This document shows positions 31,887 to 31,964 of a DNA stretch of 64,000 bases, piece after piece; positions within the stretch are counted from its first letter, which is position 1; every line of letters begins with the position of its first letter. The notes under the pieces were generated by a model, which saw only the letters and a list, made by a program, of their open reading frames with translations, searched no databases and had not been told where the DNA came from. The DNA is taken from the NCBI RefSeq assembly GCF_055900595.2, contig NZ_CM148325.1; one strand, given 5' to 3'. The translations under genes and the position numbers were made by a program.

Positions 31887-31900
31887 AACCTCCCTACACC

Positions 31901-31929
31901 GGGGTACTGCATTTTTTTTGTAGTACCCC
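31901..31929 (+). terminator. stable hairpin between elaB and menF (possible elaB terminator or attenuator)
   Basis: GGGGTACTGCA pairs with TGTAGTACCCC (one G-U wobble) around a 7-T loop; a consensus TATAAT at 31931-31936 follows, ~30 nt upstream of the menF GTG. Confidence 0.35.
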
Positions 31930-31964
31930 GTATAATGTGAGGCTTTTAACAGGGAGAGGTCCGC

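What the first reader, a model, noticed from the sequence alone, without database searches (positions are those of the whole stretch)
31887..31964. Hairpin with U-rich loop followed by a consensus TATAAT in the elaB-menF spacer
An 11-bp stem (GGGGTACTGCA / TGTAGTACCCC) encloses a loop of seven T rather than being followed by a T-run, so it is not a canonical intrinsic terminator. A perfect TATAAT hexamer follows immediately, about 30 nt upstream of the menF GTG. The arrangement suggests a combined terminator or attenuator plus promoter element setting menF expression.
Basis: seen in the sequence. Interest (0 to 1): 0.2.

Follow-up and report, generated by a model that had tools for sequence, protein, structure and literature searches.

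The report
elaB terminator hairpin overlapping menF promoter
The hairpin marks where the E. coli elaB messenger RNA ends and the TATAAT next to it is the start signal for the menaquinone gene menF, so this is a compact, conserved gene junction that public data already map and is mostly ordinary.

Summary
A 12-bp stem (31900-31911/31919-31930, one G·U, loop of seven U, -21.9 kcal/mol, z -7.3) is followed directly by TATAAT (31931-31936), 28 nt before the menF GTG. The window is E. coli and the spacer is identical to K-12, so published maps apply. Term-seq puts the main elaB 3' end at 31934, 4 nt past the stem. SMRT-Cappable-seq finds the same end for elaA-elaB transcripts (10 stop, 16 read through) and a menF-menD start at 31944, 8 nt after TATAAT. 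It is not an attenuator of menF's own transcript, which starts downstream of the hairpin. The module is conserved across many Enterobacteriaceae. Other genera have a canonical terminator (stem plus T9) 15 nt upstream of the same CGTATAAT. A C-rich box just 5' of the hairpin is complementary to the menF Shine-Dalgarno and co-varies with it, so read-through RNA may be translationally silenced. Three evolved ΔentC lines carry C31907T or C31910T in the left arm and show 4-7.5-fold more menF mRNA; how is unresolved. RegulonDB already lists a predicted attenuator here. Already catalogued, low to moderate interest.

The parts
31884..31886 (+). elaB stop codon (TAA)
   Evidence: ORF 31581-31886; elaB annotation in K-12 and strain EC42405
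31888..31895 (+). C-rich anti-Shine-Dalgarno box ACCTCCCT (core CTCCCT 31890-31895)
   Evidence: Pairs with 31952-31960 in the MFE of the spacer. The core is near-invariant in 35 class A spacers, and RNAalifold predicts CUCC:GGAG. Flanks co-vary with the SD.
31900..31911 (+). Hairpin left arm CGGGGTACTGCA; also the -44..-33 region of the menF promoter
   Evidence: Core GGGTACT is invariant in 35/35 class A sequences.
31907..31912 (+). Best -35 candidate CTGCAT (18-bp spacer, only 2 of 6 matches)
   Evidence: The promoter scan found no sigma-70 match here. Inference only.
31907..31907 (+). Site of the adaptive mutation menF(-58), C>T on the sense strand
   Evidence: PMC5892946; coordinate check against BW25113; the base is C
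31910..31910 (+). Site of the adaptive mutation menF(-55), C>T on the sense strand
   Evidence: PMC5892946
31912..31918 (+). Loop of seven T (U)
   Evidence: Loops are T-rich on their 5' side but variable in sequence and length in relatives.
31919..31930 (+). Hairpin right arm TGTAGTACCCCG; also the spacer of the menF promoter (-25..-14)
   Evidence: A similar sequence (ATGACCACG) also precedes TATAAT in genera that lack the hairpin.
31931..31936 (+). TATAAT: -10 hexamer of the menF promoter and, as RNA (UAUAAU), the A/U-only tract after the hairpin
   Evidence: CGTATAAT is kept in nearly all fetched loci, including Yersinia (TATACT, TATAGT or CATATAAT in a few). A TSS lies 8 nt downstream.
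31934..31934 (+). Mapped RNA 3' end of elaB / elaA-elaB transcripts (K-12 2380674)
   Evidence: Term-seq, PMC7815308 supplementary file 1; SMRT-Cappable-seq, PMC6131387
31944..31944 (+). Mapped transcription start of menF-menD(-menH) (K-12 2380664; +/-1 nt)
   Evidence: SMRT-Cappable-seq operon table
31951..31960 (+). menF Shine-Dalgarno region AGGGAGAGGT
   Evidence: conserved; pairs with 31888-31895
31965..31967 (+). menF GTG start codon

Best explanation
The spacer is a dual-use junction. As RNA, the 12-bp hairpin forms at the end of elaB and elaA-elaB transcripts and defines their 3' end 4 nt past the stem. I take it to act as a leaky intrinsic terminator whose A/U-only tail is UAUAAU, and it also protects the elaB mRNA 3' end. 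As DNA, the same TATAAT is the -10 hexamer of a -35-poor sigma-70 promoter that starts menF-menD... transcripts 8 nt downstream, so the hairpin DNA occupies the -44..-14 part of that promoter. Transcripts that escape the hairpin carry a C-rich box (ACCUCCCU, upstream of the menF start site) that can fold back on the menF Shine-Dalgarno. I infer that this keeps menF translation independent of elaB transcription. Shown: the structure, both RNA ends, read-through, conservation, and sensitivity of menF mRNA level to two bases of the left arm. Inferred: that the 3' end arises by termination rather than trimming, and that the fold-back blocks translation.
For: Structure: -21.9 kcal/mol, z -7.3, and stronger on the + strand because of a G·U. 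The spacer is identical to K-12, giving K-12 coordinate = 2412608 - window position. 3' end: Term-seq 'primary' elaB end at 2380674 in LB OD 0.4 (54,112), LB OD 2.0 (221,851) and M63. SMRT-Cappable-seq in M9 finds the same end for transcripts from the elaA start 2381565: 30 reads at the start, 10 ending there, 16 passing, median extension 199 nt. 5' end: start at 2380664 for menF-menD and menF-menD-menH, plus an elaA-elaB-menF read-through variant. Conservation: hairpin plus CGTATAAT plus SD are kept in Escherichia, Citrobacter, Salmonella, Enterobacter, Lelliottia, Kosakonia, Trabulsiella and Silvania. 81% of cells pair, against 40-52% when partners are slid. Buttiauxella, Cedecea and Shimwellia instead carry a canonical terminator (stem plus 8-9 T) 15 nt upstream of the same CCACGTATAAT, and Franconibacter and Atlantibacter have a stem-loop with a shorter T-rich tail farther upstream. 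So terminating elaB just before the menF promoter is the conserved theme. Fold-back: MFE pairs 31888-31895 with 31952-31960. RNAalifold independently predicts CUCC:GGAG. Matched anti-SD/SD pairs bind better than mismatched ones (-238 against -214 +/- 8 kcal/mol summed over 13 lineages; 44 of 20,000 permutations). Examples are Salmonella ACCCTCCCT/AGGGAGGGT, Kosakonia CCCCTCCCT/AGGGAGGGG and Silvania ACCTTTCCCTGC/GCGGGGAGAGGT. Genetics: three independent ΔentC lines have C31907T or C31910T, with menF log2 change 2.0-2.9 and menD, menH and menB also up. The authors cite a RegulonDB 'predicted translation attenuation site' here.
Against: There is no U-tract, so by classical criteria this is not an intrinsic terminator. 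Neither sequencing method separates termination from exonuclease trimming. More transcripts passed the site than stopped (16 against 10). The promoter has no -35 or extended -10 match, and the start site rests on one dataset; the stored Cappable-seq and ROSE files gave no entry. The hairpin core never varies, so there is almost no true covariation (RNAalifold covariation term -0.08). The predicted cost of opening the menF ribosome site is only modestly higher in read-through RNA than with shuffled upstream sequence. Class A means are 14.4, 12.9 (shuffled upstream) and 10.4 (own-promoter RNA) kcal/mol, and only 10 of 50 exceed 2 SD. E. coli gives 15.4 against 12.3 +/- 2.3, and several Citrobacter are below the control. 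In longer E. coli contexts a different outer helix is the MFE. The two adaptive mutations leave a still-stable hairpin (-19.6 and -17.0), so their 4-7.5-fold effect is not obviously due to lost termination.
Confidence: 0.7

Rival explanations
1. The hairpin does not terminate transcription. RNA polymerase reads into menF, stops further on (for example by Rho on untranslated read-through RNA), and 3'-to-5' exonucleases trim back to the hairpin, which acts only as a barrier and mRNA stabiliser.
For: There is no U-tract. 16 of 26 elaA-initiated reads pass the site and end a median of 199 nt later, inside menF. The 3' end lies only 4 nt from the stem. Trimming of Rho-terminated RNAs back to stem-loops is the subject of PMC6061677 (title only seen).
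Against: Searches of the held Term-seq supplementary files, including the Rho-region table, for 'menF' and for coordinates beginning 23806 found nothing beyond the elaB 3' end; regions labelled otherwise or lying deeper in menF would not have been caught. No reads end within 50 nt downstream of the site. The six nucleotides after the stem are all A/U, giving a weak hybrid. Related genera have a canonical terminator at the equivalent place.
Confidence: 0.3
2. The inverted repeat GGGTACTGC...GCAGTACCC is mainly a DNA operator for a dimeric repressor of the menF promoter, which it overlaps at -44..-14. The RNA hairpin is secondary.
For: Both arms are sequence-invariant across genera in which neutral spacer positions are saturated. 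Both adaptive mutations fall in the left half and 'de-repress' menF 4-7.5-fold while leaving a stable hairpin. SdiA changes PmenFDHBCE reporter output: 105-fold lower in E. cloacae wild type than in the sdiA mutant, and 1.8-2.7-fold activation in Salmonella.
Against: No binding protein or matching motif was identified, and no SdiA box is defined. The E. coli reporter was not SdiA-regulated although it has the same repeat. Arm-to-arm distance varies by 1-2 bp between genera. Several positions are G·U or U·G, which keeps an RNA pair but breaks DNA symmetry. The right arm is also conserved in genera without the left arm, which explains the invariance without a protein. C31907T also turns CTGCAT into TTGCAT, an ordinary promoter-up change.
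Confidence: 0.15
3. The hairpin is a leader attenuator or riboswitch-type element inside menF's own 5' UTR.
For: RegulonDB lists a predicted translation attenuation site in the 'menF leader', as cited in PMC5892946. The anti-SD/SD complementarity is real.
Against: The mapped menF start (31944) lies downstream of the hairpin and of the anti-SD box, leaving a 21-nt leader. No Rfam family matches. The only upstream start seen feeding this region is the elaA promoter.
Confidence: 0.04
4. The hairpin is a chance palindrome or a copy of a dispersed repeat such as REP.
For: None beyond its palindromic shape.
Against: z -7.3. The 541-bp locus containing it is single-copy (median one place per genome, 5,421 of 5,426 E. 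coli genomes); the 31-nt hairpin was not searched on its own. It is conserved at the same locus across genera, and mapped RNA ends coincide with it.
Confidence: 0.01

Closest known systems
Rho-independent (intrinsic) terminators of E. coli
   Same: G+C-rich stem-loop directly after a stop codon, with a sharp RNA 3' end a few nt past the stem and partial read-through.
   Different: No U-tract: the tail is UAUAAUGUG, and the run of U sits in the loop. Whether it terminates without factors is untested.
Canonical elaB terminators of Buttiauxella, Cedecea and Shimwellia (class B spacers)
   Same: Same position between elaB and the conserved CCACGTATAAT menF -10; the right-arm-like sequence ATGACCACG is also present.
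   Different: A 9-bp stem followed by 8-9 T lies 15 nt upstream of the -10, so terminator and promoter are adjacent rather than overlapping.
Fold-back inhibition in IS10/IS50 (own knowledge: Davis, Simons and Kleckner 1985)
   Same: A sequence upstream of the gene's own start site pairs with its ribosome-binding site. Only read-through transcripts from outside promoters are silenced; own-promoter transcripts lack the inhibitory segment.
   Different: This is a chromosomal biosynthetic operon rather than a transposase, and the effect on translation is inferred here, not measured.
RegulonDB predicted translational attenuator in the menF leader (cited in PMC5892946)
   Same: Same locus and same idea of SD sequestration; this is very probably the same element.
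   Different: It is a computational prediction that treats the region as the menF leader. The mapped start shows it can act only on read-through RNA.
Protective 3' stem-loops at trimmed ends of Rho-terminated transcripts (PMC6061677)
   Same: A stable stem-loop without a U-tract, with the 3' end a few nt downstream.
   Different: No search term used ('menF', coordinates beginning 23806) matched the held Rho-region table; the match remains possible (rival 1).

Membership tests
Intrinsic terminator | Stable G+C-rich hairpin | tested here: met
   12 bp, -21.9 kcal/mol, z -7.3
Intrinsic terminator | U-rich tract directly 3' of the stem (at least 5 T in 8) | tested here: not met
   The tail is TATAATGT (4 T of 8), and the scan did not call this hairpin
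Intrinsic terminator | RNA 3' end mapped just downstream of the stem in vivo | tested here: met
   31934, from two published methods
Intrinsic terminator | Termination by RNA polymerase alone, independent of Rho and of trimming | not testable with these tools
   Needs in vitro transcription, or bicyclomycin and exonuclease-mutant data
Sigma-70 promoter | -10 hexamer | tested here: met
   Perfect TATAAT at 31931-31936, kept (TATACT or TATAGT in a few genera) across genera including Yersinia
Sigma-70 promoter | -35 hexamer at 16-18 bp, or an extended -10 TG | tested here: not met
   Best hexamer is CTGCAT, 2 of 6; no TG at -15/-14; not called by the scan
Sigma-70 promoter | Primary 5' end 6-8 nt downstream of the hexamer | tested here: met
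   Cap-selected start at 2380664 = 31944; one dataset only
Translational attenuator / fold-back inhibition | Segment complementary to the SD located upstream of the gene's own start site | tested here: met
   31888-31895 against 31951-31960; the start site is at 31944
Translational attenuator / fold-back inhibition | Pairing maintained by covariation | tested here: inconclusive
   The core is invariant. Flanks co-vary: permutation 44 of 20,000.
Translational attenuator / fold-back inhibition | Ribosome site measurably less accessible in read-through RNA | tested here: inconclusive
   Opening energy 14.4 against 12.9 (shuffled upstream) and 10.4 (own RNA) kcal/mol; only 10 of 50 exceed 2 SD
Described RNA families (Rfam 15) | Covariance-model match | tested here: not met
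   Only three chance-level hits elsewhere in 31000-33000
Dispersed palindromic repeats (REP-type) | Many copies per genome | tested here: not met
   The 541-bp locus containing the hairpin is single-copy: median one place per genome. The short hairpin was not searched on its own.
Leader attenuator or riboswitch of menF | Element lies within the regulated gene's own primary transcript | tested here: not met
   The start at 31944 is downstream of the hairpin

The most novel reading that the evidence does not exclude
The spacer is a conserved three-part insulator. It consists of a leaky terminator whose A/U tail is the next promoter's -10 hexamer, a 16S-like anti-SD box that silences menF translation on any RNA that leaks through (leading to early loss of that RNA), and a deliberately weak -35 embedded in the terminator stem. 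Single C-to-T changes in the stem would then retune menaquinone/isochorismate supply, as seen in evolved ΔentC lines. A more speculative variant is that the invariant repeat is also the operator of an unidentified repressor, which would explain the strong sdiA dependence in Enterobacter cloacae.
Probability: 0.3. Interest if true: 0.45.

Novelty: already known. Interest (0 to 1): 0.22.

Why it matters
The junction shows how enterobacteria keep a housekeeping biosynthetic operon (menaquinone) separate from a strongly stationary-phase-induced neighbour (elaB) within 78 nt. One sequence is used twice: as an RNA hairpin with an A/U tail, and as promoter DNA. It also gives a concrete place to look for the mechanism behind published adaptive mutations that raise menF expression when entC is missing. 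It is a useful example for terminator predictors, which miss hairpins without U-tracts even when a strong 3' end maps there. None of this overturns current understanding.

Tried and rejected
- **Rfam scan** of 31000-33000 at E <= 10: nothing relevant.
- **Consensus promoter/terminator scan:** it calls neither the TATAAT (no -35) nor the big hairpin (no T tail). It called only a weak 5-bp stem at 31888-31905 followed by ACTGCATTTT.
- **Supplementary tables with no usable entry or not held:** Cappable-seq 2016, ROSE in vitro starts, Rend-seq annotation, Dar and Sorek Term-seq, 3'-UTR valves. Thomason dRNA-seq is not held.
- **Literature searches:** elaB+menF+terminator gave nothing relevant. elaB with ProQ/Hfq/RIL-seq gave only passing mentions, which I did not follow. 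The reiterative-initiation preprint does not mention menF. The SlyA paper uses menF only as a mutant.
- **Thermodynamic test of ribosome-site occlusion:** mixed, so I did not use it as primary support.
- **Inverted-repeat listing of the whole window:** it did not rank this hairpin among its 25 longest because it mostly lists overlapping palindromes. I replaced it with a folding scan.
- **Resemblances recalled from memory and dropped.** None was tested beyond the sequence.
  - TrpR half-sites GTACT/AGTAC have the wrong spacing (12 bp rather than 8).
  - NarL-like heptamers TACCCCG are in the wrong orientation.
  - In a lux-box-type CTG-N10-CAG, the gap here is 11.
  - The CRP-like TGTGA-N6-TAACA at the start site is not conserved.
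- **Translational coupling** through a ribosome stopping at the elaB stop codon: rejected as a general function. The anti-SD box lies 8-35 nt from the stop codon in other genera, but keeps its distance to the hairpin.

Full report
**What is in the sequence.** The interval 31887-31964 is the complete 78-nt spacer between the elaB stop codon (TAA 31884-31886) and the menF GTG (31965). It contains CGGGGTACTGCA (31900-31911), seven T (31912-31918) and TGTAGTACCCCG (31919-31930), followed at once by TATAAT (31931-31936).

As RNA on the + strand this is a 12-bp stem with one G·U. It folds at -21.9 kcal/mol, z = -7.3, and none of 200 shuffles folds as well. The minus-strand version is weaker (-16.9) because the G·U becomes C·A. 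It is the seventh most stable 35-nt window on the + strand of the 64-kb window.

TATAAT occurs only 9 times in the window against 21.5 expected. No Rfam family matches. The simple scans call neither a promoter nor this hairpin as a terminator, because there is no -35 and no T tail.

**Where the window comes from.** The window is Escherichia coli: 100% identity to strain EC42405, and the locus is present once in 5,421 of 5,426 complete genomes. The gene order is rbn, elaA, elaB, menF, menD. The spacer is base-for-base identical to K-12 MG1655. K-12 coordinate = 2412608 minus window position.

**Published transcript ends.**
- Term-seq (Adams et al. 2021, PMC7815308, supplementary file 1) lists a 'primary' elaB 3' end at 2380674 on the minus strand in all three growth conditions. 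Read values are 54,112 in LB at OD 0.4 and 221,851 at OD 2.0. The printed flanking sequence ends in ...GTAGTACCCCGTATA. This is window 31934, 4 nt past the stem and inside the TATAAT.
- SMRT-Cappable-seq (Yan et al. 2018, PMC6131387) reports the same end (2380674, 'novelTTS') for full-length transcripts that begin at the elaA promoter (2381565 = window 31043). There were 30 reads at the start, 10 ending at the site, 16 passing it, none ending within the next 50 nt, and a median read-through of 199 nt.
- Its operon table lists a start at 2380664 (window 31944) for menF-menD and menF-menD-menH transcripts, and an elaA-elaB-menF read-through variant.

So a 3' end and a 5' end lie 10 nt apart. The hairpin is the elaB 3'-end element, and TATAAT sits 8 nt upstream of a cap-selected start. 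The hairpin is not part of menF's own 21-nt leader, so it is not a leader attenuator of that transcript.

**Comparison across Enterobacteriaceae.** Seventy-nine menF loci were fetched, and elaB is the upstream neighbour in nearly all of them. Two layouts appear.

- **Class A** covers Escherichia, Citrobacter, Salmonella, Enterobacter, Lelliottia, Kosakonia, Trabulsiella, Silvania and others.
  - The hairpin abuts CGTATAAT as in E. coli.
  - The core GGGTACT/AGTACCC is invariant in 35 distinct sequences.
  - The top of the stem and the loop vary in sequence and in length by 1-2 nt.
  - Several pairs switch between G-C and G·U.
  - Overall 81% of cells pair, against 40-52% when partners are slid. 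True double changes are few, and RNAalifold gives a covariation term near zero.
- **Class B** covers Buttiauxella, Cedecea, Shimwellia, Atlantibacter and Franconibacter.
  - There is no such hairpin.
  - In Buttiauxella, Cedecea and Shimwellia a canonical terminator (a 9-bp stem followed by 8-9 T) lies 15 nt upstream of the same ...ATGACCACGTATAAT; Franconibacter and Atlantibacter have a stem-loop with a shorter T-rich tail farther upstream.
- **Yersinia**, where elaB is not adjacent, still has CCCCGTATAAT before menF.

I read this as follows; it is inference.
- The -10 hexamer and the roughly 9 bp before it are constrained as promoter DNA in all lineages.
- Ending elaB transcription just before that promoter is the common theme.
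- In class A the terminator stem has come to use the constrained promoter spacer as its right arm. That forces the left arm to stay fixed and explains the lack of covariation.
- The run of T in the class A loop sits roughly where the class B terminator's T tract sits, offset by about 4 nt.

**A second conserved element.** Four to five nt upstream of the class A hairpin lies a C-rich box (core CTCCCT, E. coli ACCTCCCT 31888-31895). It is complementary to the menF Shine-Dalgarno region (AGGGAGAGGT 31951-31960).

- The spacer's MFE pairs the two, and RNAalifold predicts the CUCC:GGAG core on its own.
- The flanks change together. Examples are Salmonella ACCCTCCCT/AGGGAGGGT, Kosakonia CCCCTCCCT/AGGGAGGGG, Trabulsiella GAACCTCCC/GGGAGGTTC, Enterobacter AACC-N-CTCCCT/AGGGAG-N-GGTT and Silvania ACCTTTCCCTGC/GCGGGGAGAGGT.
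- Across 13 lineage representatives, matched pairs bind better than permuted ones: -238 against -214 +/- 8 kcal/mol, with 44 of 20,000 permutations as good.
- The box lies upstream of the menF start site, so only RNA reading through from elaB carries it.

The logic matches fold-back inhibition in IS10 (own knowledge). It also matches the 'predicted translation attenuation site' that RegulonDB lists here, as cited in PMC5892946.

The thermodynamic support is only moderate. The cost of opening the ribosome site averages 14.4 kcal/mol in class A read-through RNA, 10.4 in own-promoter RNA and 12.9 with shuffled upstream sequence. Only 10 of 50 loci exceed the control by 2 SD. E. coli gives 15.4 against 12.3 +/- 2.3, and some Citrobacter fall below the control. 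In longer E. coli contexts a different outer helix wins: GUUAAAACCUC with GAGGCUUUUAAC, and GGCACG with CGCGUGC. I therefore treat translational silencing of read-through RNA as a reasonable inference, not a result.

**Genetic evidence.** In Wytock et al. 2018 (PMC5892946), all three independently evolved ΔentC lines of BW25113 carry menF(-58) G>A (two lines) or menF(-55) G>A (one line).

- BW25113 menF starts at 2,374,122, so these are C31907T and C31910T on the sense strand. Both lie in the hairpin's left arm, and each converts a C-G pair to U·G.
- menF mRNA rises by log2 2.0-2.9, against 0.21 in the ΔentC parent. menD (2.45), menH (1.85) and menB (1.67) rise too.
- The calculated hairpin energy drops from -21.9 to -19.6 (-58) and -17.0 (-55). 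The predicted fold of the read-through RNA is unchanged.
- The -58 change also turns the only -35 candidate from CTGCAT into TTGCAT (18-bp spacer). The -55 change improves no -35.
- In nature the -58 position is invariant, while the -55 position varies (T in Kosakonia).

The data fit three readings: weaker termination feeding elaB transcription into menF, a stronger promoter, or relief from a repressor bound to the repeat. I cannot separate these by computation.

The repressor idea gains a little from reports that sdiA alters PmenFDHBCE reporters. The effect is a 105-fold decrease in E. cloacae and weak activation in Salmonella. However, there was no effect in E. coli, no SdiA box is defined, and regulation may be indirect.

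**Mechanism I commit to (confidence about 0.7 for the core).** The hairpin defines the 3' end of elaB and elaAB mRNA. It acts as a partial intrinsic terminator whose weak hybrid is UAUAAU. The same DNA is the upstream half of a -35-poor sigma-70 promoter whose -10 is that TATAAT and whose transcript starts at 31943/31944. RNA that leaks through carries an anti-SD box that limits menF translation. The main rival (about 0.3) is that polymerase does not stop here at all and the 31934 end is made by exonucleases trimming back to the hairpin. Both keep the hairpin as the elaB 3'-end element.

**Novelty.** The kind of element is familiar: terminator-promoter junctions, non-canonical 3' hairpins, and SD sequestration of read-through transcripts. 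This instance is already in public resources: a Term-seq table, SMRT-Cappable-seq tables, a RegulonDB predicted attenuator, and adaptive mutations in a published study. As far as I could find, three things are not written down:
- the exact overlap, with the terminator tail being the -10 hexamer and the stem being the -44..-14 promoter region;
- the replacement of a canonical terminator by this overlapping form across genera;
- the point that the attenuator can only concern read-through RNA.

I rate it as already known, of low to moderate interest (0.22). The unresolved mechanism of the -58/-55 mutations is the one part worth an experiment.

Noticed in passing
window 31941-31949 (GGCTTTTAA), and the same columns in alignment A2: The first transcribed bases of the menF mRNA are a conserved G-G-(C/T)-TTTT run, kept in class A and as GGGGTTTT(T) in class B. 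The mapped start falls on the first T. A T tract at the start site is the known setting for reiterative (slippage) initiation sensitive to UTP (own knowledge). The one preprint checked does not mention menF.
   Followed up: partly
window 31875-31892 with 31939-31968: There is an E. coli-specific alternative long-range pairing. GTTAAAACCTC, which spans the elaB stop codon, pairs with GAGGCTTTTAAC. GGCACG pairs with CGCGTGC, which covers the menF GTG. This is the MFE in 131-nt and longer contexts. It is not conserved outside Escherichia.
   Followed up: partly
L052:2289-2501; L058:2335-2501; L061 and L077:2267-2501: Some relatives carry a 50-130-nt insertion in the elaB-menF spacer: Enterobacter genomosp. 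O, Buttiauxella agrestis, B. gaviniae and B. massiliensis. In L052 it separates the anti-SD box from the hairpin. From memory the inserts look like ERIC/IRU-type intergenic repeats; I did not verify this.
   Followed up: no
window 31937-31952: A CRP-like sequence AATGTGA-N6-TAACA is centred on the menF start site. The left half is a perfect match and the right half matches 4 of 5. The left half is not conserved in other genera.
   Followed up: partly
window 31540-31548: TCTATAGTT lies about 33 nt upstream of the elaB ATG and resembles an RpoS-type extended -10. That would fit the fourfold higher elaB 3'-end signal at OD 2.0. I did not test it.
   Followed up: no
window 28633-28666, about 11035-11070, and about 23533-23567: Other very stable local hairpins occur in the window. 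One is a 15-bp stem at 28633-28666 (-25.2 kcal/mol). Two others score between -22.5 and -25.8 on one or both strands. I did not examine them.
   Followed up: no
whole window: Perfect TATAAT is under-represented: 9 observed against 21.5 +/- 5 expected from dinucleotide shuffles, and every one of 100 shuffles had at least 9.
   Followed up: no
L025 (Parasutterella muris NZ_WSRP01000019.1) and L080 (Caballeronia mineralivorans, 318-bp contig): Enterobacteriaceae-type menF sequences turn up in assemblies labelled as Betaproteobacteria, at 69% and 95% protein identity to E. coli MenF. L025 has no elaB upstream. Contamination or transfer is possible; I did not check.
   Followed up: no
window 31937-32050 (+): A 37-codon GTG ORF starts 1 nt after the TATAAT and overlaps the menF start in another frame. 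Nothing suggests it is real, and I did not examine it.
   Followed up: no
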